Below are positions 1,313 to 58,305 of a stretch of 64,000 bases of DNA, one piece after another. Numbering within the stretch: position 1 is the first letter of the stretch; each line of letters opens with the position of its first letter. The notes beneath the pieces are model-generated. The model searched no databases and had not been told where the DNA came from. It was given only the letters and a program-made list of their open reading frames with translations. The translations under genes and the position numbers were made by a program. The DNA comes from Naegleria gruberi (taxonomy: Eukaryota), in NCBI GenBank assembly GCA_000004985.1, contig GG738846.1; one strand, 5' to 3'.

Positions 1313-3279
1313 ATGAAACAACACCCAATTTCGGGCCTTAACAATTCTTCACGTAGTATTAGTAATAATAATAAGAATTTGAGAGCATCACAACAACAAC
1401 AGGGTGGGGAAAATGATTCATACAATCTTAATAGGAGTGGATTTAGTGCGGTAAGCATTCGATCAAGTCAGACATCTTCAGTGAAGAGTTATCATGCTCC
1501 TTCTTCTGAAGCCTTCATCAAAGTGGTCATGAAAATGGTTCGCATCATCATCAGCATTTAGGAGGAGCAAATATTGTGAGAGGAGGTGCTAGTCTTTCAT
1601 CTTCGGGACGTAATAATTTATCTTCATATTTTGAGGTGGACGATGATGAGGAAGAGGACTTGTTGAATAATTCTACCACAACGCCTCAACAACAAAACAA
1701 TGAAAAGATGATGGAGGAAAATCTTGAAATTGGATCATTGAATACGAGTCAAATAACAAGTACTGCCAGTAATTATTCAAACTATCCACCATTGGCCAAC
1801 AATTCATTCAGTACTAATCCTCCACTTGTGGAATCATTGAAAAACTCAAAGAAAGCAGCTTCACACCAGCAACATGACAAGATTTTGAAACACTTTTATC
1901 AGGAGAGTGATGAAGAATCCATTCCAGAACCGAGAGTTTATTCTCCTCAACAACAAAAGCAACAACACTCATCACCACAAGCTCCTCTTTCTCAAACACG
2001 GTCTGTCTCTTCAAAGACATCTTCAAAGAAAAGTAGCAGTAACAAACACAACCCAATGCTGGAACATCAACCTCCTCAGCCATTTCCAATGTTTCCAAAT
2101 CCATACCAATTCTTTCCAAACTTTAATTATTACCCATTCTTTCCACCGCAATATGGTGCCAATATGAATGCAGACGCTATTACGGAAATGCAAAAACTCT
2201 ACCCAAATGTACAAGCCAGTAATGATACATTCATTACTGAAAAGTCGGTCGAAAGCTCCTCGTTCTTTGAGAAGGATCAATTGTTGGATGTTTTAATATC
2301 GGAGAGTAAGCAAATGAAGTCGGTAATTGAGCATCAATCCGAATTGATTAATGTAATTTTAAAAAAGTTGGATGAAGTGAATGGAAAACTGGATGTATTA
2401 AAAGCCCAAAATAGGGATAAAACCAACCAGGTCAGTAATACAAACTCCCCAAATACAGCCTCTCTTAAATCATCCACAAGATCCACAAGCAAACAACCAA
2501 TAGATGAGACAGACCTTAATAATCACTCCAAGACCAGCAATAGTATGATTAACAACACGAGCCACTATCAATTCCATACTGATAATAGCATTCTCAAGAA
2601 ATCACCTCCAGCCTCTCCTGTTAAACCTGCCACTGCAACAGTTTCAAATAGCACTGAATCGTTTAGGTATGCAAATTCAATTCCTAGCCCTTCAAACTCT
2701 CCAATCAAGCCAATTTCAAAAAGTGCAACTCTATCTCCAAAACCAAATAGTCAGAGCCCTAACAATACAAGGTTATCAACCAACTCATCTACCAATCTAT
2801 ATGGCTATTCTAGTCCACTTGTAGATTATGGGTCAAAGCATTCAACACCAAAAACAAACCACCATTTAAATTCCTCGATTTCAAATCTCAGAGATTATGG
2901 AAGTTCAAAATCAAACTCACCATCCAATCACTTCTTTGAAAGTGTCAGTAAGAAGAAACCAATGATATCACACGATATGGATGATTCCTTATTGAATAGC
3001 AGCAAAATGACTGACTCTTTAGATTTATATTCTCATGCTGACGATTCTTTTGTTTACAACACCTCATATGTGAGCAGTTGCAGTTCAACTCCTCCAGAAC
3101 CATTTTCCACTGACATGCAACGATATCTGCATGAAAACATCCTCTCGGGTAGTACCTCTAAGAAGGATAATGTCAAAGATTCGGATAGCACCTTTGTTAA
3201 AAAGAAAGATTATTCCAATTATTCGTCTTCACCTAACGCAAGCATTCCTCTAAAGAGTTTTTCTAAAATTGATGTGTAA
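1313..3279 (+). CDS. S/N/Q/P-rich low-complexity protein with one coiled-coil-like segment. The two track ORFs (1313..1561 in frame 2 and 1576..3279 in frame 1) are very probably one gene.
   Basis: The ATG at 1313 opens a serine-rich ORF. The downstream ORF's reported M is GTG, and its frame is open back to 1510 (SLHQSGHENGSHHHQHLGG...). The two frames overlap over 1510..1558, so a 1-nt indel near 1507-1510 or the candidate intron 1451..1554 would join them. I recognise no conserved domain. Confidence 0.45.
1451..1554 (+). other. Candidate intron (GTAAGC...CAG, 104 nt) that would join the 1313 ORF to the 1576 ORF in frame. It is weak because its composition is coding-like rather than AT-rich; the alternative is a frameshift.
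   Basis: Length mod 3 = 2 restores the frame. The donor is gtaagc at 1451, and the acceptor AG ends at 1554. Confidence 0.25.
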
Positions 3280-16141: not shown

Positions 16142-16765
16142 ATGAGTTTACGACCAGAATTCACCAGACAAGACAGCCTCTCATCTTCCGTAAGCTATGA
16201 AGATGTTGATGACGAGCCTTCCCCATTTTCATCTTCCGAAGTTGATCAACAACAATTTGTGCTTGATAATAATTCATTGTTAGAGGCTAGATTTTCTATT
16301 GAACATGTAAAAACTGTCCTATCGCAACTCTACAAACAATTAACATGTTTTAATATTTTCATCATGATTTTAGTGTACATAGTAATCGTATCTGCAAGTT
16401 CCATATTTTTCTTTTTTGTTGCGTCCACAGATGTGAATTATGATGATAATGTTTACAATAGTATGAACACATTCGAATATCTGCACTATTCATTTACAGC
16501 CTCAAGAAGAATTCTGCACTGGAAGAGACTATTGATCGTGATTGCATTCCAATTATTTGTATTTATTAGTCATTTATCATTCTTCCTCACCTTCTTCCAA
16601 TATTGCAAAAACAAATACGTGCAAGGACCTCTAATCAGAATGGAACATTTGAAAACAATTTACAAGCAAAAATTGTTCATTGCTGTTTCCTTAATAACTC
16701 TCACGAGTATGATTAGTCTCTTCTTACTATCTCCTAATATTGTTAATTGGCTGTTTGGACTCTAA
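16142..16765 (+). CDS. Hypothetical small multi-pass membrane protein
   Basis: 207 aa with a true ATG, an acidic N-terminus, then 3-4 hydrophobic helices. The stop TAA at 16763..16765 overlaps the stop of the convergent gene. Confidence 0.45.
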   Translation: MSLRPEFTRQDSLSSSVSYEDVDDEPSPFSSSEVDQQQFVLDNNSLLEARFSIEHVKTVLSQLYKQLTCFNIFIMILVYIVIVSASSIFFFFVASTDVNYDDNVYNSMNTFEYLHYSFTASRRILHWKRLLIVIAFQLFVFISHLSFFLTFFQYCKNKYVQGPLIRMEHLKTIYKQKLFIAVSLITLTSMISLFLLSPNIVNWLFGL

Positions 16766-19325: not shown

Positions 19326-20615
19326 ATGTCAATACTCGAAGAACAAAACACACTCCCATTCTCTGAACAAGAATCACCAGAAAATTATCTTTATTTTCTT
19401 ACCACAGTTAATCCAACAGATTTTATTAATACGTCGGAGAGAGGAAGTAAAATTGTAAAATTATTTTCGGAACACTTTTTACCTTTGCCCTTCTCATCGA
19501 ATGAGGATGGATCTGACTTGACAGAGGAAACAACAGTAATTTTACTTGTTCCATACTTTATTGCATTGGGAACTTTGCAAATTAGACAGGAAAATACTCA
19601 GCCATTCAATATGGAATTGCATCAAAAAAATAGAAAGATTCAATTGAAACAAGCAAATGAATATTTTTGTAAATTTTTAAATTTGGCTTTACAATATGAT
19701 CAGGTTAATGATGATTACCTCTCTTGGGTATTGCCTCATACAATGAATAGGGATGATGATGAGGAGGAACAAGTTGCAAAATCTACCAAGAAACAGGATA
19801 AGGCATTCGAACAATTGATGAATGACAGAAGTCAAATGGTATTGCGAATGAAGACAAAGAATGCCTTAGCACAGGAGTTATTTTCAAACGTTGAGGAAAT
19901 GTCTGAATTGGAAATTTCTAGATTATTGTCGAGTGTTTCTCTTGGAGAGGATTCAAGCAAGAAGGTTTCAGAACAAGTGAAAAAGAAAATGTTGAACATT
20001 AGAGATTATATTAACTTTTGCGTTCTAGACACTTTGGAGAATTTAGCTTCCAACAGTAGAGAAGAAGGAATGCTCAATGCAGTTTCTGCTCGTCCTTCCA
20101 TGCCTCAACATCCTTCCCAATCGTATCAACAACAAAGTGGTTCAACATCAGGACAACCAATTTCCCATCTTAAGGCTACATCTATTAATGATGTTCTTAA
20201 TAACCGTGGGGTTCTCTCACAAATGGGCTATAATATGATCTTACTTCCAAATAATAATGGTGGCAATACTGGAAACAAGTCAACCAGTAGTGGCAATTCA
20301 TTACAAAAGAAGGCACTCGCCAATCAGTCCATTCAATCCAATATTATCAATAATAGAACAACAAGAGAGGATATCAAAAGTAGAGTGTTTGGATCCTATG
20401 TTCCTGGACCAACAGTATCTCTGGAAGAGTTTGCCCGACAGGAATGTATCGACATGCACCAAAGAGAAGAAAAAGACAAGCAATTCAAACAAGAACAGAC
20501 TCAAAAGAAGAAGGATGACGAAGAGGAAGAAGATGAAGAGGAATTGAAAAAGAAGAGAGTGTGGGAAGATTGGAAAGATGATCATGTTAAAGGTTCTGGT
20601 AATATGAGAGATTAA
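19326..20615 (+). CDS. tap42: TAP42/alpha4 (IGBP1)-like PP2A-regulatory protein
   Basis: The C-terminus EEEDEEELKKKRVWEDWKDDHVKGSGNMRD* matches the human alpha4 tail (...[21 protein letters not shown]). LLVPYFIALGTLQ resembles LLVPAFQGALTMKQ. Confidence 0.65.
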   Translation: MSILEEQNTLPFSEQESPENYLYFLTTVNPTDFINTSERGSKIVKLFSEHFLPLPFSSNEDGSDLTEETTVILLVPYFIALGTLQIRQENTQPFNMELHQKNRKIQLKQANEYFCKFLNLALQYDQVNDDYLSWVLPHTMNRDDDEEEQVAKSTKKQDKAFEQLMNDRSQMVLRMKTKNALAQELFSNVEEMSELEISRLLSSVSLGEDSSKKVSEQVKKKMLNIRDYINFCVLDTLENLASNSREEGMLNAVSARPSMPQHPSQSYQQQSGSTSGQPISHLKATSINDVLNNRGVLSQMGYNMILLPNNNGGNTGNKSTSSGNSLQKKALANQSIQSNIINNRTTREDIKSRVFGSYVPGPTVSLEEFARQECIDMHQREEKDKQFKQEQTQKKKDDEEEEDEEELKKKRVWEDWKDDHVKGSGNMRD

Positions 20616-22822: not shown

Positions 22823-25561
22823 ATGGGAATCAATAAGGTTACACCAATAGAGAATTTTCCAACTCCCTCCTATAACAACCACACGTTGGATCCCAACGCT
22901 TGCGAATTGCAGGAAATATCATCAAATGGATCTTTTAATTATTTACAATCATCAATAGGGAAATTGAGTGCTAGAAGTTTTGATGTGAGGGCCGTTACCA
23001 AAACTTCCTTCTCCAACACTATTCATGTCTCAAGCAAACGGATGGGGAGACCAGATACACCTCCCCCGAACGACCTCAAAAGTATAATTCCCTGGTTCAG
23101 ATATAATTGCTTAACACTGGCTAACTTGGTGATTGTGTTTGTGCTCATATTTATATTATTGTTCTGTATTGCTTTTGCCTTGACCATTGTGCTCTTCACA
23201 GGTCATATTTCATCAGAATTGAGTTCGGTAACAATTGGTGTCATAAAATCCAAGGTGGATCTCTTTCTGAAGGAACGATTAGGTGTCGTAGAGACTGTTG
23301 CCTTTACTGCTCAACAAGATGTACGAATGCTTATCAATCAGTTTGCTTATTCCCCATCACCATTCTCCTCTTCTGCTCTCTCTTCCCATATCAGAGAATA
23401 CCTCTCCTCACGCTTAATTTACCACAACATTACCTCGATAGGGTTATATTTTGAAAATTGCTTGGGCAATGCAAACACTTCTTCCATGTACAAATGCCAA
23501 CTTGATCAATCAACAGATTTTGTAAATAGCTATATTTGGATGAATCAAACAATGAATTCAGATTTGAACACTTACCAAACAAGTGAACATCGAAATACAT
23601 CCATCACCATTGATACCTCCCAACCTCTTCAAACCATAGTCTCGAGTTCCACTAAAATTCCATTAAACTTTGAAGATTCAACTCTCCTCCACTCTGATTC
23701 CGCCTACCGTACCTTTTCCAATGCATTCTATTTAGATATGAAAGACAAACTTGTCAACCTGCCAGCCTATCAAGCTCTACAAGGTGTATGGTCACCATCC
23801 TCTAAAATAGATCCATCCAAATTTAATCTAGTCTTTACTGTGCCTATTTTTGATGCCAATAATTTGCAACTCTATGGAATAACCCAGGTGGAATATCCCT
23901 TACAAGCTTTGGCTCATTTAATGAGGACATTTACTTATCAATCAAAGGGTTACATTGTTCTTTCAGATTTGAACACTGAAAAAGTGGTTATTAGTTCTCT
24001 TCCAGATTCTTACACTCTTAAATCGATCTATGATATTAAGGAACTGAACATTGGTAAACTAATGACGTATCTCAAACAGAATTCCTTCCTCGATTTCAAT
24101 TCTGAAATCTCAGTCAGCGGAGTTGAATTTGAGGGGCTGGTCTACAATATGCTCAATACAAAATTCTCCTACAATAACGTTAACTTAGGGATGACCATTG
24201 TATTGGTCGATGATTCGGTTCAAGAATTCCACAATGATACCCTGTACTTGGCTATTTGTATTTCAGTTGGTTATGTAGTAATTGGACTTGTAATGGCTAT
24301 TATTTTAGGGTTCTTAATTTCGAAACCTCTCAAAGCATTGAGTGTTGAGTTTGGTCACATTAAGCACATGGACCTTGAGAAGGTTAGACAACACTTTTCA
24401 ATGTTTGGTGAATTCCAAGTTCTCTTCCAAAAGTTGGATGAAATGGTTGTTTGGTTGAATGATGTTCGTTCTTTCATTCCTAACAGTATCTTGATGGAAA
24501 TTAGAGGTGATTCAATTGACAATGATGTTACAGAGACTGAAATTGTTACGACAAACATCAATGTAAAAGACAAATTAGCAGAGACCAAAGGAAGAGCAAG
24601 TAGTGAAATTCCAGAAAACTCAATCGCTAACATTGCAAAGGGGTTCAAGACCTATCAAGAATACTCAGTTTTGTATATGCGTATCATGGACTTGGAATCA
24701 TTAACAGTTACCGAGAGAGCATTCTACTTTGAAAAGGTTCTTGAAATTTCATCAAAGATTGCAAAGAAAAACAATGGTGATATCCAATTATTGGATATTA
24801 GCAGAATACGTATTTACTATTGTGATCCAAATAATGAAAATGCCTCCAAAAAGGTGATTACAATGGCTTTGAAAATTTTGAGTGTTGTTGCTGATTTTAG
24901 CTCAACAATGGAGCAACAAGGAAAGTTGCCGTGCAACTTGATAATTTCAATCTCTACGCAGAAGGCTCTCGTTGGTAATATTGGTACTAGGGAGCATAGA
25001 ATCCACACCATTGTTAGTAGATCCATTTCATTGTGTGAACAAATGATGCTCATCGCCAAATCATTGAATATTTCACTTATTGTAGATTCTAACTCTTGTG
25101 CTGCAAACTTGGGAAACTATGTTTATAGGCCAGTTGACAGAATTTCAGTGGAAGACGATTTGATGGTTATTTATGAAATCTTTAGAGAAAATCAAGTAAA
25201 TGACCAAGAATGGATGTACGAACTGGATCAAAAGGAAAAGAATAGTAGCTACAATGAATATCAAAGTGCATTCCAAACCTTATTGAAGGGAGGACCCAAA
25301 ATTGAAGAGTACCGTGAAGCCATCTTGAAAGTTAGACGATTCAAAGGATCTAATGGTTTTGATCGAGATCTTACTGCTGACCATCTAATCTTTATGCTGG
25401 AAAGAGTTTCTGAAAGTTGTGAGAGAGGCCTTTCTGAAAAGTTGAGCCCACAATTCACTTCATCCTATCAATATTGTTCCAGAATATATACAGAATGGGA
25501 AAATAAGTTTGGTATGGATGTGCTGAAAATTAGACCAGTTGAAATTGTCAATAATAAATAA
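22823..25561 (+). CDS. Two-TM receptor-like protein with an extracytoplasmic sensor domain, a HAMP-like linker and a class III nucleotidyl cyclase homology domain, possibly catalytically degenerate
   Basis: TM1 is LTLANLVIVFVLIFILLFCIAFALTIVLF, followed by an extracellular region of about 370 aa, then TM2 YLAICISVGYVVIGLVMAIILGFLI. After it, YSVLYMRIMDLESLT...ALVGNIGTREHRIHTIVSRSISLCEQM follows the class III cyclase pattern (F.DI.GFT ... G.V.G.IG ... VN.ASR), but the positions of the transition-state Asn and Arg appear substituted. Confidence 0.5.
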   Translation: MGINKVTPIENFPTPSYNNHTLDPNACELQEISSNGSFNYLQSSIGKLSARSFDVRAVTKTSFSNTIHVSSKRMGRPDTPPPNDLKSIIPWFRYNCLTLANLVIVFVLIFILLFCIAFALTIVLFTGHISSELSSVTIGVIKSKVDLFLKERLGVVETVAFTAQQDVRMLINQFAYSPSPFSSSALSSHIREYLSSRLIYHNITSIGLYFENCLGNANTSSMYKCQLDQSTDFVNSYIWMNQTMNSDLNTYQTSEHRNTSITIDTSQPLQTIVSSSTKIPLNFEDSTLLHSDSAYRTFSNAFYLDMKDKLVNLPAYQALQGVWSPSSKIDPSKFNLVFTVPIFDANNLQLYGITQVEYPLQALAHLMRTFTYQSKGYIVLSDLNTEKVVISSLPDSYTLKSIYDIKELNIGKLMTYLKQNSFLDFNSEISVSGVEFEGLVYNMLNTKFSYNNVNLGMTIVLVDDSVQEFHNDTLYLAICISVGYVVIGLVMAIILGFLISKPLKALSVEFGHIKHMDLEKVRQHFSMFGEFQVLFQKLDEMVVWLNDVRSFIPNSILMEIRGDSIDNDVTETEIVTTNINVKDKLAETKGRASSEIPENSIANIAKGFKTYQEYSVLYMRIMDLESLTVTERAFYFEKVLEISSKIAKKNNGDIQLLDISRIRIYYCDPNNENASKKVITMALKILSVVADFSSTMEQQGKLPCNLIISISTQKALVGNIGTREHRIHTIVSRSISLCEQMMLIAKSLNISLIVDSNSCAANLGNYVYRPVDRISVEDDLMVIYEIFRENQVNDQEWMYELDQKEKNSSYNEYQSAFQTLLKGGPKIEEYREAILKVRRFKGSNGFDRDLTADHLIFMLERVSESCERGLSEKLSPQFTSSYQYCSRIYTEWENKFGMDVLKIRPVEIVNNK

Positions 25562-51589: not shown

Positions 51590-52843
51590 ATGTCCTATCA
51601 AAGACAATTCAAACTCATGACCATGTTCGGAGCAACTTGTTTGCTCTCTGGTGGTGCAACATTTGTTTACAGGGGAATTAATGATGTTGATTCACCACTG
51701 TACTCTAAATTTGTGATGCCTCTCTTACACAAGATGGATCCCGAAGATGCACACAATTTATCAAAACTTGCCATAAAGTATGGAATTGGTCCAAAGGAAA
51801 AGAAATTAAAAGCAAATCAATATGGATTGGATCCACTCATTAGCTTACATACAAATTGTTTAGGATATCATTTTGAGAATCCTATTGGATTGGCAGCTGG
51901 ATTTGACAAGGATGCCGAATGTATGAAAGGAATTGAAAAGTTGGGGTTTGGTTTTATGGAAGTTGGAAGTATTTGTCCTCAACCACAACCTGGAAATCCA
52001 AAACCTAGAATTTTCAGATTGAATTCTAAAGTTTCCGATCCAGATGGAACAATTTTTGATACCATTCTCAATAGATGTGGATTCAATAGTAAAGGAATGG
52101 AAGTTTCGGATGAAAATTTGACAACCTATAGAAATTCATACCAGTCTCTTAATACATTCCCAATTGGTGTCAATTTGGGAAAGAACAAAACAAGTGCACC
52201 AGAAAGTATTGAGGATTATTTGATTGGTGTGAGAAAGTTGGCTAAACATGCAGATTTTTTGGTTATTAATGTCAGTTCACCAAATACCCAACATTTGAGA
52301 TCACTCCAGGAAAAGAGTTCCCTTGATACATTAATTGAGGAAGTTTCTACAGAATTGAAAAAACACAAAAACATTCCACTCCTTATCAAAATTGCACCAG
52401 ATTTGACCCTCGATCAACAACGTGACATTGCTTCATTGGCACTCAAACATTCCATTGGTGGTATCATCGTTTCCAATACAACTATTGAAAGACCATTTGT
52501 ATCGAGTGAACAAATTAATGCCATTCCAAATGGATCTGCTGGAGGTATGAGTGGTCGTCCACTCTTCAATCAATCCACTAAAGTTTTGAAGAATATGTAC
52601 AAATTAACAGAAGGTAAGGTGACACTCATTGGTGTTGGAGGTGTTTGGGATGGTTATGATGCATTACAAAAGATCCAAGCTGGTGCTTCACTAGTTCAAG
52701 TTTATACAGCTTTCACTGCTCAAGGTCCAGCTGTTGTTGGTAAAATCAAGAGAGAATTAGCTCAGTTACTTGCTGAAGGTGGATATGCCAGAGTTTCTGA
52801 TGCTGTTGGCTCTAAAGCCAAGTTTAGTAAATTGGAAGAATAA
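51590..52843 (+). CDS. DHODH: Dihydroorotate dehydrogenase (quinone), mitochondrial class 2 (DHODH)
   Basis: FENPIGLAAGFDKDAE...GFGFMEVGSICPQPQPGNPKPRIFRL...LNRCGFNSKG...IGVGGV are class-2 DHODH signatures. The N-terminal targeting/TM segment is MSYQRQFKLMTMFGATCLLSGGATFV. Confidence 0.8.
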   Translation: MSYQRQFKLMTMFGATCLLSGGATFVYRGINDVDSPLYSKFVMPLLHKMDPEDAHNLSKLAIKYGIGPKEKKLKANQYGLDPLISLHTNCLGYHFENPIGLAAGFDKDAECMKGIEKLGFGFMEVGSICPQPQPGNPKPRIFRLNSKVSDPDGTIFDTILNRCGFNSKGMEVSDENLTTYRNSYQSLNTFPIGVNLGKNKTSAPESIEDYLIGVRKLAKHADFLVINVSSPNTQHLRSLQEKSSLDTLIEEVSTELKKHKNIPLLIKIAPDLTLDQQRDIASLALKHSIGGIIVSNTTIERPFVSSEQINAIPNGSAGGMSGRPLFNQSTKVLKNMYKLTEGKVTLIGVGGVWDGYDALQKIQAGASLVQVYTAFTAQGPAVVGKIKRELAQLLAEGGYARVSDAVGSKAKFSKLEE

Positions 52844-53292: not shown

Positions 53293-53547
53293 TTTGTTTA
53301 ATGTTGAAATTGTATTGTTTAAAAAACAATTAAATATATTATATTTTGATGATACTACAGTTTATTATCTAAATCAAGATAGTCAACTATGTATTAATTC
53401 ATCACAACACAACAATATTTGCTGTTCCTATTTAGTAAAGAGCAAAATTGTAAGCAAGCACAAAAATTTTCGTATTATTCAACAAACAAATTTCTGCTCT
53501 CCATTGTTTGCCTCGTTTTCTTCTTGATTGCCAACAAATCAAAAAAA

Positions 53548-55218
53548 ATGTCCAAACGAAACAGAGAAGAAATTACAAAAAGATATCTAGAAGATGCTGA
53601 TTATGATGACTCTGACGATGAAGACTATGAACCTTCCGATGAAGAATCACAACAAAAGATTAATCCAAATCAGAGTGGCAGAGAGAAAATTAAACAACTA
53701 CCTGAACATTTGAAAGGAAAGGCAAAGATTGAAGAATTGAATAAGATTCACTTTGACATTTTTACAAGTTTTGATCAAGATGATAATGCCAATAATAATA
53801 GTAATAATAATAATACAACTGATGATGATGAGTTGAGTCGTTGGGATAGAGAAAGATCAATCTTTTTATGTCAAAATATTTTACATGGAGATGAGGATGA
53901 AATGTTCAGCAGTGCTCGACTAGTTAGAACCTTTGCAACTCACATCTCTAAATTTGATAGTTTACAGGAACAAGTCATGAAGGAAGAAGATAATGATGAA
54001 AACAAGAAGAAGAAACAAGTTCTCCTCTCAATTCAATGCAGAAATAAGAGTAATATTGATGTTATACTCAAGTTCTTTATTGGTGGAGAGGCTTTAACAG
54101 AATTAGACACACAGGTTCCAAAAAAACAAATTGTGGATATACGTGGTTATGATGATATGATTGGAAAATTGAGAAGAAAATTACTAATTGATGCATATGA
54201 ACCAATGAATCAAAGCAGCAGCAGCTCAGCAAGTGGAAGTAACAGTGCTGGTGGTAGTAGTAGTTCCAACTCTTCAACCTATCTTAGAGACTATGGTTCG
54301 ATAAAAATTGAGGTTTATCAAGCCATTAGAGAAAAGTCAAAGATTGATTCTGATTATGAAGATGATTCTGATGAGGAAGAGGATGAAGAAAAGGACGATT
54401 TCATAGCAACTAGCTCATCAGAGGTTGAAAAACTGAGTCGTTACACACAAAACATGAAACAGCAAGAACGTTGTGGAATGCAAGTTTCATTTAAGGCTTC
54501 AAGAATTGAAAGACCAAAGAAAAAGGTAAAGAGGAAGGGAAAGAAAGCAAAGTTTGAAACCATTTTCGAAGAAGGACCTCTACTGTTCCAATCTGTTTAC
54601 AAGTACAGATCTTATTTGGGTTTCTTGTGTGAACTTCAAGAATATAATATTGACTTGGGAAAGACCAAAAACATGGCCAGAGGAAGATCATTAGATAATG
54701 AAAGTTCTTCCTCTGATGACGAATCTTCTTCCTCTGATGATGATGATGAAAATGGAATCAAGACAGAAGAGCAAGATGATGGCGGTTTTATTGATATTAC
54801 AGATGATGTTGAAGAACCACCTAAAATAATTCCAACAGTTTCTCTTGATAGTGATGACGAAGAGGAAACTGATGTCAAACCAACAGCTGCTGAACTCGAG
54901 AAACATGCCAAACAATCCTCAATCTGTCAAGCTTCAAGCAGTACATCCAGCTCAGCAATTCAACAGAGTAGTAGTGCCTACTCATTCAAAGAAACCATCC
55001 AAGATGTGGAGAAAAAGAATGTAGATAATTTGATGCGATTCATCAAACTCAATGATGAAACATTATACAATGAAGTTAAGGATATTTTCAAGAAATTTCA
55101 GGTTTCTGGAAGCAAATTGTTGAGTAGGACTCTTGATTACCCTAAAATGGGGGTGAGTGTTAAATACCAAATTAAGATTTTACAAATTGTAGATAAGATT
55201 ATTGATAATTCCATGTAA
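53548..55218 (+). CDS. Hypothetical acidic, Ser-rich nuclear-type protein (about 556 aa)
   Basis: The first ATG is at 53548 (MSKRNREEITKRYLEDADYDDSDDEDYEPSDEE); the track start at 53419 is a TTG. D/E/S-rich blocks and basic patches (KKKVKRKGKKAK) are present. I recognise no family. Confidence 0.55.
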   Translation: MSKRNREEITKRYLEDADYDDSDDEDYEPSDEESQQKINPNQSGREKIKQLPEHLKGKAKIEELNKIHFDIFTSFDQDDNANNNSNNNNTTDDDELSRWDRERSIFLCQNILHGDEDEMFSSARLVRTFATHISKFDSLQEQVMKEEDNDENKKKKQVLLSIQCRNKSNIDVILKFFIGGEALTELDTQVPKKQIVDIRGYDDMIGKLRRKLLIDAYEPMNQSSSSSASGSNSAGGSSSSNSSTYLRDYGSIKIEVYQAIREKSKIDSDYEDDSDEEEDEEKDDFIATSSSEVEKLSRYTQNMKQQERCGMQVSFKASRIERPKKKVKRKGKKAKFETIFEEGPLLFQSVYKYRSYLGFLCELQEYNIDLGKTKNMARGRSLDNESSSSDDESSSSDDDDENGIKTEEQDDGGFIDITDDVEEPPKIIPTVSLDSDDEEETDVKPTAAELEKHAKQSSICQASSSTSSSAIQQSSSAYSFKETIQDVEKKNVDNLMRFIKLNDETLYNEVKDIFKKFQVSGSKLLSRTLDYPKMGVSVKYQIKILQIVDKIIDNSM

Positions 55219-55256
55219 ATATATATGTAATAATTTATTTAAATGTAAATCTATAA

Positions 55257-55568
55257 TATGTTTCTTTAGATTCAGATTCTTCTTATCTGAGAATTTTGAG
55301 TTTATCTGGATGCGGAATTGATAATGACGATTTGAAAGTTATAGTAAATGGAATGATGAACAAGTTAGTGGAATTGTATCTGTCAGAAAAATCAAATAGT
55401 GATGTGAGTTGGGGTTGGGGGACTGCGGGAGCAAGGGGTACTAGAAAGTACATTGTACTTCTTTTTTCATTAATAAAAAATGCACTCAAGAAAAGATTAA
55501 AGAGACAGCACTTATTAAGGAGGAAGTTCATTATGTTGAGAAACTCGTTTGATATAGTGGAAGATTAA
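55257..55568 (+). pseudogene. Orphan ORF encoding an RNI-type LRR fragment, followed by a G-rich tract. It may be a gene fragment or an unplaced exon.
   Basis: YVSLDSDSSYLRILSLSGCGIDNDDLKVIVNGMMNKLVELYLSEKSNS follows the L.L..C.I.D..L..I......L..L.L..N repeat. No ATG start is present (the track M is a TTG). A GTGAGT lies at 55404, then ggggttgggggactgcgggagcaagggg. Confidence 0.3.
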
Positions 55569-55656
55569 CTAGTAATTCAGTTAGAAACAAATTTATCTAA
55601 TTTGGAACCCAGCATTTCTGAAAAAGTCCAATTCATTCTTTACAATTAAAGCACAT

Positions 55657-55914
55657 TCAAGTGTAATGAATCGTCGCAGCCTTAACACTTTGTAGTAAAT
55701 AATTAGCTTGTTCTCTGGTTTCTTCATCACAATCGGAATCGTTGGCTATAGCACTATACAATTCCGCTAAACAATCAGACAAGTCAGCAGGTTTTTGTGG
55801 TGTAGCAGTTTCTTCTGCATGAAATGATGATTCAGTACTAACTGGCATTTTAACTGGAGTGGCAATTATTGTGAGAGGGGAAATTTTTTTTGTTGAACTA
55901 AGTTTTTTAAGCAT
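55657..55914 (-). CDS. Hypothetical small protein (86 aa)
   Basis: The ATG is at 55914 (MLKKLSSTKKISPLTIIATPVKMP...SDCLAELYSAIANDSDCDEETREQANYLLQSVKAATIHYT). No homology is recognised; supported only by ORF length. Confidence 0.3.
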   Translation of the reverse strand: MLKKLSSTKKISPLTIIATPVKMPVSTESSFHAEETATPQKPADLSDCLAELYSAIANDSDCDEETREQANYLLQSVKAATIHYT

Positions 55915-55966
55915 GATGATTGTGATAAGATGTGGAGACAAAAGAATGCAGATAGTTTGATGCCAG

Positions 55967-56043
55967 CATTATACAAATGAAATTAAGGATATTTTCAAGA
56001 AATTTCAGGTTTCTGGAAGCAAATTGTTAGAGTAGGACTCTTT
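55967..56043 (+). repeat. Decayed duplicate of the 3' coding end (55061..55134) of the 53548..55218 gene
   Basis: cattatacaaatgaaattaaggatattttcaagaaatttcaggtttctggaagcaaattgttagagtaggactcttt matches cattatacaatgaagttaaggatattttcaagaaatttcaggtttctggaagcaaattgttgagtaggactctt, with about 93% identity and a few indels. It translates HYTNEIKDIFKKFQVSGSKLLE*. Confidence 0.75.
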
Positions 56044-56102
56044 CAATCCTTGTTCAAAATAGAAAGTATGTTCAGTTTCGTAAATGGTGTAATTGAAAAG
56101 AT

Positions 56103-58305
56103 TTATTCATCATGATCTGATGATTCATTCTCAACATCCTCCTCCATCATATCCATAATCACCTCAGCATCAACCTTTTCAGGATGATCAGTGAATGCCA
56201 ATTGTTTCTCAGCTAACTTTCTATAGACACCATTTTCATTGCGGAGTAAATCATCATGTTTACCCTTTTCCATCAAGTTACCCTTCACCAAAACACAAAT
56301 CATATCAGAATTCTTAATTGTTGACAATCTGTGAGCAATACAAATGGTTGTTCTACCGTGCATTAAGGTATCGAGAGCTGCCTGAACCAAAGCTTCTGAT
56401 TCTGTATCTAATGCAGAAGTAGCTTCGTCCAGGAGTAAAAGTTTAGGATTTTGAATTAAGGCTCTAGCAATGGCAATACGTTGTTTTTGACCGCCCGACA
56501 TTGAGACACCCTTTTCACCTAATAATGTATCATATTGTTCTGGAAGATCCATAATGAAATTATGACAATTGGCAAGTTTGGCAGCATTCATAATTTGTTC
56601 ATCTGTGACATTTTCCAAACCAACTGCATAGGCAATATTATCCTTAATGGTTGCAGCAAACAATACTGGTTCTTGAGTGACAATACCTAAATTTCTGTGA
56701 AGCCACATTGGATCAATTTCAGTAATATCAATTCCATCAATTTCAATACTTCCCTTATTTGGATTATAGAACTTTTCCAATAAACCAACAATGGTCGACT
56801 TTCCTGATCCAGATGGACCCACCAAAGCAACCGATTGACCAGCCTTAATTTCCAATGAGAAATTCTTCAATACTGTAATATTAGGTCTGGCAGGATAAAT
56901 AAAATCAACATTTCTAATGGAAATATTTCCGACCAAATTATCAATTTTCTTACCACCCTTAAATGGAATTTCAGGCACTCTCTTAATTACCTTCAACAAG
57001 TAAGTTTCACTCAATCTTGCTTTTGTAAAGTCTGGGAAACTTGCAGTTGTTTGAATCATACCCATAACTGACATGAGCATTAAACCAAAAACTTTAAAGT
57101 AATCTCCCAAACTAAGCTCATTATCAATGATCAAATTACCTCCGTACCAGAAACCAAGAGCGATAGTTCCCCACAATACGAAACCAACTAGATTTCAATA
57201 GTTCAAGTTATGAAAAAATGAATAAAACAAATAACCTACCAATCATAAATGCCAATCCAATAAAGAATGCCTTAAAAAATCCATAAAAGCTAACAATTTT
57301 CAATTGTGACTTGTATCTCAATTGTTCCTTAATTTCACCAGCCATTGATCTGACAGTTTTAATGGCACTGATAATTTCACTTGAAATGGCATAACCCTTC
57401 TCATTGGCATCATTGGTCTTTCTTGTGAATAATCTAATAATGACATCCAAAATAATAATAGTAAGGAAAATCAATGGTGTGGTTGAAATAATGACAAGTG
57501 ACATTTTCCATGAAGAAGTAAATGACATGATCAATCCACCAACTGTTTGAGCAGTATTCTGAATAATTGTTGATAATTTCAATGTATAGGCATCTTGAAT
57601 CTTGGCCACGTCATCACTCAACACACTTGTCAAGGCACCAACTTTCTTAATATCAAAGAATGCCATCTCCTGAGCAGTCAATGAATTAAAATATAATTCT
57701 TTCAATTTTTGTCCAACTCTTTCATTTGCCCAATTGAAAAAGAAATGTAACATGAAATTGGCAACAAAAGCACTTGCTGCAACAATTGTTAATTTCCAAC
57801 CAACTGTATTGACACCTTGTCTGATGGCTTCTGTGGTTACATTGGTACTTGTTAAAATATTAAGTAAATCACCAACAATAAATTGGATAAATAAGGAAAT
57901 TAATCCAGCACTATATTTGGTAATTCAAAATATTATTTAAAAATATTCAATGAATAATTAATTATATTAGTAATGATAGTAATATTAATAAAAAACATAC
58001 CCAACTGCACCAATAGTTCCAAAAAACATTAAAATTAAATTAAACCATCCAAATTTGGATAATAAATACAAGTGATCCTTTGCTCCAATGGATGGTTCTC
58101 TTGGATCATCGATTTCTTCATTCTTTTCAGATAATTCTTTCATTTGTGCTTGATATCTACGTTGTTTGATTCTTTTGAATGGATTTCTTGACAAGGAATT
58201 ATTCGAAACTCCTGCTTGACTTTCTGGAGGTGGTGCAGCACTTGTTGTAGTTGGCGTGCTTCCTTCCTCAACAACAGTTCCTGGCACAATTGATTCTGAT
58301 ATCAT
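56103..58305 (-). CDS. ABC transporter, ABCB-type half transporter (TMD-NBD). Three exons: 58305..58001, 57910..57240, 57187..56103.
   Basis: Walker A GPSGSGKST, signature LSGGQKQRIAIARAL, Walker B LLLDEATSALD and the H-loop IAHRL are present. The TMD carries ABCB motifs (AFFD....G.LTS.LS.D). Exon junctions have GTATGT/GTAGGT donors and phases that reconstitute ...GTIGAVG-AGLISLF... and ...FMIG-VGFVLWG... Confidence 0.8.
57188..57239 (-). other. Intron (52 nt, GTAGGT...TCTAG) in the ABCB gene
   Basis: Phase-1 junction; AT-rich. Confidence 0.55.
57911..58000 (-). other. Intron (90 nt, GTATGT...ATATAG) in the ABCB gene
   Basis: Phase-2 junction; AT-rich. Confidence 0.6.

What the first reader, a model, noticed from the sequence alone, without database searches (positions are those of the whole stretch)
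55967..56043. Decayed roughly 77-bp duplicate of the upstream gene's 3' coding end, about 900 bp downstream
55967..56043 is about 93% identical to 55061..55134, which encodes ...TLYNEVKDIFKKFQVSGSKLLSRTL near the C-terminus of the 53548..55218 gene. The copy is preceded by a plausible acceptor (tgccag|CAT) and reads HYTNEIKDIFKKFQVSGSKLLE* in frame to a TAG. It is either a relic of a local segmental duplication or an alternative, shorter terminal exon of that gene.
Basis: seen in the sequence. Interest (0 to 1): 0.5.

Follow-up and report, generated by a model that had tools for sequence, protein, structure and literature searches.

The report
Decaying gene-fragment copy in Naegleria spacer
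A 116-base piece of a Naegleria gruberi gene's coding end was copied about 0.9 kb downstream into non-coding spacer DNA and has been decaying there at the neutral rate, so it is an ordinary dead gene fragment and not an extra exon.

Summary
The repeat is real and longer than reported. Window 55927-56042 (116 nt, + strand) copies 55001-55134 (134 nt), which lies inside the single-exon gene NAEGRDRAFT_77912 of Naegleria gruberi (CDS 53548-55218). There are 110 matches, 3 mismatches, three 1-nt insertions and one 24-to-3-nt replacement. It is the only non-self match in the 64-kb window (BLAST E = 2.5e-27).

A metagenome contig from another N. gruberi-like lineage (L001, 97.9% identical) carries both parent and copy at the same junctions. 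This rules out an assembly artefact and puts the duplication before the two lineages split.

Between the two lineages the copy differs by 4 substitutions (3.4%, against 3.75% at pooled synonymous sites) and by indels of 1, 8 and 1 nt. The parent segment differs by one synonymous change. The reading frame and stop codon of the proposed "exon" differ between lineages. The parent gene's own C-terminus is conserved to its stop in N. fowleri. The two clear introns nearby are about 55 and 95 nt, whereas an intron into the copy would need at least 749 nt.

Verdict: a neutral relic of a short local DNA duplication, probably repair- or replication-templated, lying between the ABCB gene's 3' end and an orphan ORF. 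Low interest.

The parts
53548..55218 (+). Parent gene NAEGRDRAFT_77912 (556 aa, hypothetical protein, single exon). It has acidic and Ser/Asn low-complexity runs and an all-helical C-terminal domain.
   Evidence: 100% match to the N. gruberi protein P0001 and 41% to the N. fowleri orthologue P0002, aligned end to end. No Pfam family is significant; the C-terminal 80 aa give only SAM_2 at E = 0.14.
55001..55134 (+). Parent segment (134 nt) of the duplication. It encodes (Q)DVEKKNVDNLMRFIKLNDETLYNEVKDIFKKFQVSGSKLLSRTL.
   Evidence: The corresponding peptide is present in the N. fowleri orthologue, so this is the ancestral copy. Only one synonymous difference (55120 T>C) separates it from lineage L001.
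55927..56042 (+). Decayed copy (116 nt), same orientation, starting 926 nt downstream of the parent's start. It lies in the spacer between the ABCB terminal exon and an orphan ORF.
   Evidence: Also present in L001 at 1226-1347. Between lineages: 4 substitutions and 3 indels.
55964..55966 (+). Site where 24 parental nt (55037-55060) are replaced by CAG in the window copy. This happened in two steps: a 13-nt deletion shared with L001, then a window-specific loss of 8 more nt plus a substitution.
   Evidence: Four-way alignment and the polarised table.
56029..56035 (+).
   Evidence: It is absent from the L001 copy, where that frame stays open to ...SILVQNRKYVQFRKWCN*.
56103..57176 (-). Terminal exon of an ABC-transporter (ABCB-type) gene. 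Its TAA stop at 56103-56105 is 60 nt from the copy.
   Evidence: PF00005 ABC_tran E = 5.6e-34. Upstream introns are visible. There are 14 synonymous and 0 non-synonymous differences from L001.
55657..55848 (-). Orphan 63-codon ORF (MPVSTESS...IHYT*). Its ATG lies 78 nt beyond the copy's left edge, read on the minus strand. It is context only and is not shown to be a gene.
   Evidence: It was called only by the gene finder on the metagenome contig (P0003). No homologue was found among 1.84 billion representative proteins. The longer 85/94-codon version in the window is frameshifted in L001 by a 2-nt indel at 55854.

Best explanation
This is a non-functional relic of a short, local, DNA-level duplication. 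In an ancestor of at least two N. gruberi lineages, 134 nt from the 3' part of the NAEGRDRAFT_77912 coding sequence were copied in direct orientation. The copy landed in the spacer about 0.8 kb downstream, 60 nt beyond the stop codon of the convergently transcribed ABCB gene. Since then it has accumulated substitutions at the neutral rate and frame-breaking indels independently in each lineage. It is neither an exon nor a gene. The way it was made is inferred, not shown. The most likely route is templated synthesis from a nearby sequence in cis, either during repair of a break in the spacer or through a replication template switch. Only a small internal piece of the gene was copied, and nothing from its flanks.
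For: SHOWN. (1) The repeat is real and unique in the window. (2) The CDS copy is ancestral, because N. fowleri has the peptide in its orthologue, and no paralogue exists that could have been the donor. (3) An independent metagenome contig (L001; 97.9% identity over 3.8 kb) has parent and copy with identical junctions. (4) Polarising by the parent: a 13-nt deletion, +A, A>G and G>A are shared by both copies and so predate the split. +C, T>C, A>G, an 8-nt loss with one substitution, and +A are specific to the window copy. T>G is specific to L001. (5) Between-lineage substitution divergence of the copy is 4/117 = 3.4%, against 20/533 = 3.75% at pooled synonymous sites (Fisher p = 1.0). The indels are 1, 8 and 1 nt. 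The parent segment shows one synonymous change. (6) The window copy has stops in the parental frame (TAA at 55926-55928, then TAG). The L001 copy is open but has no ATG. (7) There is no similarity beyond either end. No Rfam family matched and no RNA structure was detected (z = 0.51). INFERRED: the templated-insertion or template-switch origin. This rests on the small size, the cis location, the direct orientation and the internal end-points. Pol-theta end joining is a documented source of templated insertions (PMC7165422 and PMC2895639, titles and abstracts only).
Against: No microhomology or target-site duplication can be recognised at either junction (read). No empty site from an outgroup was available, so the mechanism of origin is not demonstrated. 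From my own knowledge, classical pol-theta templated insertions are much shorter (a few to tens of nt) and copy sequence within tens of bp of the break. This case, 134 nt from 0.8 kb away, fits a template switch or ectopic synthesis better than textbook TMEJ. Absence of transcription or function was not tested, because no RNA data were accessible. Rate estimates rest on small counts: 4 substitutions and 3 indels.
Confidence: 0.85

Rival explanations
1. The copy is the remnant of a larger tandem duplication. A unit of about 926 bp (55001-55926) was duplicated head to tail, and all but the first 134 nt of the second unit was later deleted.
For: The copy starts at 55927, which is where a second unit would begin if the unit were 55001-55926. 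The 884-nt spacer between the convergent 77912 and ABCB ORFs is much longer than the other convergent ORF spacers in the window, which range from -4 to 44 nt.
Against: Any pair of direct repeats can be described this way, so the coincidence carries no weight. No residual similarity exists to the right of the copy (56043-56102 vs 55135-55335; shuffle p = 0.88). Only 60 nt remain before the conserved ABCB stop, so an exact deletion of about 790 bp would have to be added to the story. It needs two events instead of one.
Confidence: 0.08
2. The copy is an alternative, shorter terminal exon of NAEGRDRAFT_77912, spliced in at 55967 or at the T-rich ...ttttttaag|CAT acceptor-like site at 55912.
For: AG dinucleotides precede 55967 and 55912. 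A GTGAGT in phase 0 lies in the CDS at 55153. In L001 the whole copy is open in the parental frame from 55912 onwards.
Against: Read-through of the GTGAGT is conserved in N. fowleri (KYQIKILQIVDKI vs KDQIKILQITNRI), so the gene ends at 55218. The frame, length and stop of the putative exon differ between lineages: 22 codons ending in TAG in the window, 42 codons in L001. The window copy has stops in the parental frame. The indels are 1, 8 and 1 nt. All parent-versus-copy substitutions are non-synonymous in the parental frame (read). The intron would be at least 749 nt, against 55 and about 95 nt for the two clear local introns.
Confidence: 0.03
3. The copy acts in antisense. If it is transcribed on the minus strand, as an extended ABCB 3' UTR or as the leader of the orphan ORF, it gives about 110 nt of RNA that is 97% complementary to the NAEGRDRAFT_77912 mRNA. 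That RNA could pair with the mRNA or feed an RNAi pathway.
For: The geometry allows it. The copy lies 60 nt downstream of the ABCB stop and 78 nt upstream of the orphan ORF's ATG, both on the minus strand. The 53-nt core is identical in both lineages. Naegleria has candidate Dicer and Argonaute homologues, although RNAi is not established there (PMC13315211).
Against: The copy as a whole evolves at the neutral rate. At 3.75% divergence, zero differences in 53 nt is expected by chance in about 14% of cases (my arithmetic). An AATAAA overlaps the ABCB stop codon, so a short UTR ending before the copy is plausible, although Naegleria poly(A) signals were not checked. There is no expression or small-RNA evidence.
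Confidence: 0.04
4. The copy is an assembly or sequencing artefact, such as a chimeric read or a collapsed repeat.
For: Two of the window-specific differences are single-base insertions (+C, +A), a typical error type in low-quality Sanger sequence. These two bases alone could be errors.
Against: An independently sampled and independently assembled contig (MEGAHIT, ENA ERZ929261) from a 2%-diverged lineage has the same insertion at the same junctions, with its own private changes.
Confidence: 0.005

Closest known systems
Partial (fragment) gene duplicates, i.e. unprocessed pseudogene fragments, as catalogued in many eukaryotic genomes (own knowledge)
   Same: It is a DNA-level copy of an internal piece of a nearby gene. 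It has no start codon and no promoter of its own, carries frame-breaking indels and diverges at the neutral rate.
   Different: It is very short (134 nt) and lies within 1 kb of its source in a very compact genome. No other such copy exists in this 64-kb window.
Templated insertions / filler DNA made during polymerase-theta-mediated end joining or microhomology-mediated template switching (PMC7165422 and PMC2895639, abstracts; size ranges from own knowledge)
   Same: A short stretch of nearby sequence is copied in cis into a non-homologous site, in direct orientation, with internal end-points unrelated to gene structure.
   Different: It is larger, and its template lies farther away, than typical TMEJ insertions. 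No junctional microhomology is recognisable, and the enzymes involved are unknown for Naegleria.
Cis/trans natural antisense transcripts and pseudogene-derived siRNA sources, as described for mouse oocyte pseudogenes and trypanosomatid/plant loci (own knowledge)
   Same: A gene-fragment copy lies where transcription of the opposite strand would make RNA complementary to the parent mRNA.
   Different: There is no evidence of transcription, small RNAs or sequence constraint here. The resemblance is one of geometry only.

Membership tests
Unprocessed partial gene duplicate (pseudogene fragment) | Significant nucleotide similarity to part of a functional parent gene, with the parent identifiable as ancestral | tested here: met
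   110/113 aligned bases are identical and E = 2.5e-27. The parent peptide is conserved in the N. fowleri orthologue, and no other paralogue exists.
Unprocessed partial gene duplicate (pseudogene fragment) | Loss of coding capacity: frameshifts or stops, and no start codon | tested here: met
   The window copy has three +1 insertions and stops in the parental frame. The L001 copy is open but has no ATG.
Unprocessed partial gene duplicate (pseudogene fragment) | Neutral evolution between lineages | tested here: met
   Divergence is 3.4% in the copy against 3.75% at pooled synonymous sites (Fisher p = 1.0), plus indels of 1, 8 and 1 nt. The parent segment has one synonymous change. The counts are small.
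Processed (retro-) pseudogene | 3' poly(A) tract, a copy anchored at the mRNA 3' end, and target-site duplications | tested here: not met
   The copy ends 84 nt before the parent's stop codon. It is followed by TCAATCC..., not an A-run, and no flanking direct repeat is present. Loss of introns is uninformative because the parent has none.
Simple tandem (head-to-tail) segmental duplication | Two adjacent full units with similarity along the whole unit | tested here: not met
   Similarity is confined to 134/116 nt, and flanks on both sides are no better than shuffles.
Pol-theta/MMEJ templated insertion | Microhomology between break ends and template at both junctions | tested here: inconclusive
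   None is visible at either junction in either lineage. However, the edges have diverged (a 2-nt indel at 55925) and no empty site is available.
Pol-theta/MMEJ templated insertion | Template located close by, in cis, and a short insert | tested here: met
   The template is 792 nt away on the same strand and the insert is 134 nt. This is at or above the upper end of the usual size range (own knowledge).
Alternative terminal exon | Splice signals, frame and stop conserved in relatives | tested here: not met
   The stop and the sequence just upstream of the acceptor differ between the window and L001, and the indels are not multiples of three.
Alternative terminal exon | Spliced transcripts joining the upstream gene to the exon | not testable with these tools
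   No N. gruberi transcript data are reachable. Exact-protein look-ups found no record.
Transposon-mediated gene-fragment capture (Pack-MULE/Helitron-like) | Fragment embedded in an element with terminal repeats or multiple genomic copies | tested here: inconclusive
   No convincing inverted or direct repeats bracket the copy, and nothing else in the window is repeated. Genome-wide copy number could not be examined.

The most novel reading that the evidence does not exclude
The fragment has been co-opted as an antisense module. Read-through of the ABCB gene, or the leader of the orphan minus-strand ORF, would carry about 110 nt complementary to the NAEGRDRAFT_77912 mRNA. This would couple the expression of neighbouring genes or seed endogenous siRNAs in an organism where RNAi is not yet established.
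Probability: 0.04. Interest if true: 0.45.

Novelty: new member of a known kind. Interest (0 to 1): 0.1.

Why it matters
It matters little on its own. It is a clean, dated example of a very short cis duplication of coding sequence in the compact Naegleria gruberi genome, with two lineages showing step-by-step neutral decay. It could serve as a small marker for strain phylogeny or as one data point on repair and template-switch scars in Heterolobosea. Practically, it warns annotators not to model an extra exon here. It also shows that the GTGAGT inside the 77912 CDS is not an intron donor.

Tried and rejected
- **Exact-protein look-ups:** queries for the 556-aa protein, the N. fowleri orthologue, DHODH and the 85-aa ORF found no record. 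The reference-genome annotation and the N. fowleri locus were therefore unreachable.
- **JGI metagenome scans:** the 32-nt core and the 77912 protein alignment both returned nothing, so no third lineage or empty site was obtained.
- **Further contigs:** look-up of the ABC exon product found only L001 again.
- **LRR-like ORF 55257-55403:** no close homologue, so it cannot be shown to be a second gene-fragment relic.
- **Orphan 63-aa ORF:** no homologue in the word-indexed search or the exhaustive search, so it is not shown to be a gene.
- **Parent C-terminal domain:** Pfam gives only SAM_2 at E = 0.14 and there was no PDB match. The single-sequence AlphaFold model has pLDDT 55, too poor for a fold search, so the SAM-like idea is left as a lead.
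- **RNA features of the copy and spacer:** the Rfam scan gave only a chance SCARNA7 hit (13.6 bits against a gathering score of 65), and minus-strand folding gave z = 0.51.
- **Excess change in the copy:** I first thought the copy was diverging faster than expected (Poisson p = 0.0007 against the regional average). I rejected this once synonymous sites gave the proper neutral benchmark.
- **Gene conversion of the L001 copy by the parent:** I considered and set this aside. A conversion tract would have to end inside the deleted segment, and the shared derived bases persist.
- **Literature:** searches for PRJEB11402 and for Naegleria genome structure gave nothing useful.

Full report
**Organism and setting**

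The window is Naegleria gruberi nuclear DNA. The ORF 53548-55218 is 100% identical to "hypothetical protein NAEGRDRAFT_77912 [Naegleria gruberi]" (P0001, 556 aa). Its only other relative is an N. fowleri protein (P0002, 41% identity, full coverage). To the left lies a dihydroorotate dehydrogenase ORF (51590-52843). To the right, on the minus strand, lies the terminal exon of an ABC transporter (56103-57176; PF00005, E = 5.6e-34). NAEGRDRAFT_77912 and the ABC gene therefore converge, with 884 nt between their stop codons.

**Checking the observation**

The repeat is real.
- The 53-nt core occurs exactly twice, at 55069-55121 and 55976-56028, with one mismatch between the two. It appears in none of 100 shuffles.
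- A self-BLAST of all 64 kb returns this pair as the only non-self match: 55927-56042 vs 55001-55134, E = 2.5e-27.
It spans 116 nt (55927-56042) against 134 parental nt (55001-55134).
- That alignment has 110 matches and 3 mismatches. It also has three single-base insertions in the copy (C at 55939, A at 55975, A at 56029).
- One 24-nt parental stretch (55037-55060) is replaced by CAG.
- Nothing beyond either end is similar: flank alignments score no better than shuffles, p = 0.88 on the right and 0.68 on the left.

**Which copy is ancestral**

The N. fowleri orthologue contains the corresponding peptide: TQDVTRKTVDELRTFIKLNDEELYNNIRNILSEKEISGSRFMSLS. It also aligns with the N. gruberi protein all the way to the stop (KYQIKILQIVDKIIDNSM vs KDQIKILQITNRIHQNSS). 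Two conclusions follow.
- The coding copy is ancestral and the spacer copy is derived.
- The gene really ends at 55218. The in-phase GTGAGT at 55153 is read through and is not used as a splice donor.

No paralogue exists that could have donated the fragment.

**An independent assembly**

A homology search with the small minus-strand ORF next to the copy returned a 63-aa protein from an ENA metagenome (P0003). Its contig is L001 (ERZ929261 / ERR1078381 / PRJEB11402, MEGAHIT k127_437737, 3821 bp).
- L001 aligns to window 53435-57267 at 97.9% identity, with 43 mismatches and 9 gap openings.
- It therefore comes from a different N. gruberi-like lineage, sampled and assembled independently.
- It contains both the parent (L001 2134-2267) and the copy (L001 1226-1347), with the same left and right junctions.

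This disposes of the assembly-artefact explanation. It also shows that the duplication predates the split of the two lineages.

**Step-wise decay**

Using the parent as the ancestral state, the four-way alignment and the site table sort the changes as follows.
- Shared by both copies, so before the split: a 13-nt deletion (parent 55045-55057), A>G (55966), +A (55975) and G>A (55982).
- Window copy only: +C (55939), T>C (55949), A>G (55955), loss of a further 8 nt with an adjacent substitution (55963-55964), and +A (56029).
- L001 copy only: T>G (55961).
- Parent segment: a single change in L001 (55120 T>C, TTG>CTG, synonymous).

**Rate of change**

For a neutral benchmark I computed Nei-Gojobori counts between the window and L001.
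- The ABC exon has 14 synonymous and 0 non-synonymous differences (pS = 6.2%).
- The 77912 CDS, without its Asn-run, has 6 synonymous and 3 non-synonymous differences (pS = 1.9%, pN = 0.23%).
- Pooled, pS = 20/533 = 3.75%.
- The copy shows 4/117 = 3.4% substitutions (Fisher p = 1.0 against synonymous sites). It also has indels of 1, 8 and 1 nt, none a multiple of three.

The copy therefore behaves as unconstrained DNA. Pre-split change on the copy (2 substitutions in about 113 nt, 1.8%) is about equal to the per-lineage change since the split. This makes the duplication young, roughly twice the age of the lineage split. That age estimate is my inference from very small counts.

**The alternative-exon idea**

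It ends at a TAG (56033-56035) created by the window-specific +A at 56029. In the parental frame the window copy has stops: TAA at 55926-55928, then TAG.

In L001 the same stretch is open in the parental frame for 66 codons: TKFFKHDECEDVEKKNVDNLRRFIKHYTNEIKDIFKKFQVSGSKLLSRTLSILVQNRKYVQFRKWCN*. This is because its two indels sum to -12. It has no ATG, and it ends at a different stop.

The sequence just upstream of the proposed acceptor (tgccag|CAT) is itself the product of the window-specific 8-nt loss; L001 has tcatcaag|CAT there. A frame, a stop and a splice context that all differ between two lineages only 2% apart are not what a used coding exon looks like.

The two unambiguous introns of the neighbouring ABC gene are about 55 and 95 nt (GTAGGT...TAG and GTATGT...TAG). 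Any intron into the copy would have to be at least 749 nt. It would also remove the most conserved C-terminal helix of the protein.

**Other readings tested**
- There is no Rfam family. The only listed hit is SCARNA7 at 13.6 bits against a 65-bit threshold.
- The minus-strand RNA of the spacer has no unusual structure (z = 0.51).
- It is not a retrocopy. The copy ends 84 nt before the parent's stop and has no A-tract and no target-site duplication.
- No bracketing terminal repeats suggest a transposon, although genome-wide copy number could not be checked.

**Origin (inferred)**

A single event copied an internal 134-nt stretch from 0.8 kb away, in direct orientation, into a spacer. The simplest explanation is templated synthesis during repair of a break, or a replication template switch. 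Polymerase-theta end joining is a documented source of templated insertions (PMC7165422 and PMC2895639; only their abstracts were consulted). From my own knowledge, typical insertions of that kind are shorter and more local. I could see no junctional microhomology, and without an empty site the junctions cannot be reconstructed. A tandem duplication of about 926 bp followed by deletion of about 790 bp is possible, but it needs two events and leaves no trace.

**Position and possible consequences**

On the minus strand the copy lies 60 nt downstream of the ABC gene's TAA. It lies 78 nt upstream of the ATG of a 63-codon ORF (55848-55660).
- That ORF has no homologue in either protein search. It is not among N. 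gruberi proteins known to the database, so it is an orphan ORF of unproven status.
- If minus-strand transcripts cover the copy, they would be antisense to the 77912 mRNA.
- Candidate Dicer and Argonaute homologues exist in Naegleria, but RNAi is not established there (PMC13315211).
- Neutral divergence of the copy argues against a maintained function. The identical 53-nt core is compatible with chance at this divergence.

I give this most-novel reading about 4%.

**Verdict**

It is an ordinary decaying gene fragment: a new instance of a well-known kind, of low general interest.

Noticed in passing
window 55257-55405 (+): An open frame, YVSLDSDSSYLRILSLSGCGIDNDDLKVIVNGMMNKLVELYLSEKSNSD, gives a sub-threshold LRR_6 match (E = 0.0031; 17.9 bits against a 23.4-bit cut-off). 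It is bracketed by splice-like signals (tttctttag| at 55269 and |GTGAGT at 55404). It sits in the 3' spacer of NAEGRDRAFT_77912. No close homologue was found, and both differences from L001 (55306, 55391) are non-synonymous. It may be an old LRR-gene relic or an unannotated exon.
   Followed up: partly
window 55657-55848 (-): An orphan 63-codon ORF (MPVSTESSFHAEETATPQKPADLSDCLAELYSAIANDSDCDEETREQANYLLQSVKAATIHYT) is 100% identical at nucleotide level in L001. No homologue exists among 1.84 billion representative proteins. The upstream 22 codons seen in the window are frameshifted in L001 by a 2-nt indel at 55854.
   Followed up: yes
window 55219-56102: The 884-nt spacer between the convergent 77912 and ABC ORFs is far longer than the spacers of the other convergent long-ORF pairs in the window: 12 nt at 3279/3292, -4 nt at 16765/16762, -4 nt at 20615/20612 and 44 nt at 25561/25606. 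The unusual length hints at decayed or unannotated genes here.
   Followed up: partly
window 55403-55425: A G-rich run, GTGAGTTGGGGTTGGGGGACTGCGGG, contains two TTGGGG units. L001 lacks one GTTGGG unit (6-nt indel at 55408).
   Followed up: no
window 56103-57176 vs 53548-55218 (compared with L001): Synonymous divergence between the two lineages is uneven. It is 6.2% in the ABC exon (14 synonymous, 0 non-synonymous) and 1.9% in NAEGRDRAFT_77912. The cause could be mutation-rate heterogeneity, codon-usage constraint or a recombination mosaic.
   Followed up: no
window 53435-53547, 55219-55256, 55406-55656, 56044-56102, 57177-57267: Non-coding DNA other than the copy is less diverged from L001 (8/552 = 1.45%) than pooled synonymous sites (3.75%; Fisher p = 0.02). 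This suggests constraint on the short spacers and introns of this compact genome. Counts are small.
   Followed up: no
window 53788-53819 and 54735-54737: There are in-frame length polymorphisms in low-complexity runs of NAEGRDRAFT_77912. They are a 9-nt indel with clustered substitutions in the Asn-run and a 3-nt indel in the Asp-run.
   Followed up: no
window 55153-55158: A consensus-looking donor GTGAGT lies in phase 0 inside the 77912 CDS and could tempt gene modellers. The read-through peptide is conserved in N. fowleri, so it is not an intron start.
   Followed up: yes
window 16762-16765 and 20612-20615: Two convergent long-ORF pairs overlap by 4 nt at their stop codons. This illustrates how tightly packed 3' ends are in this genome. 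The ORFs were not verified as genes.
   Followed up: no
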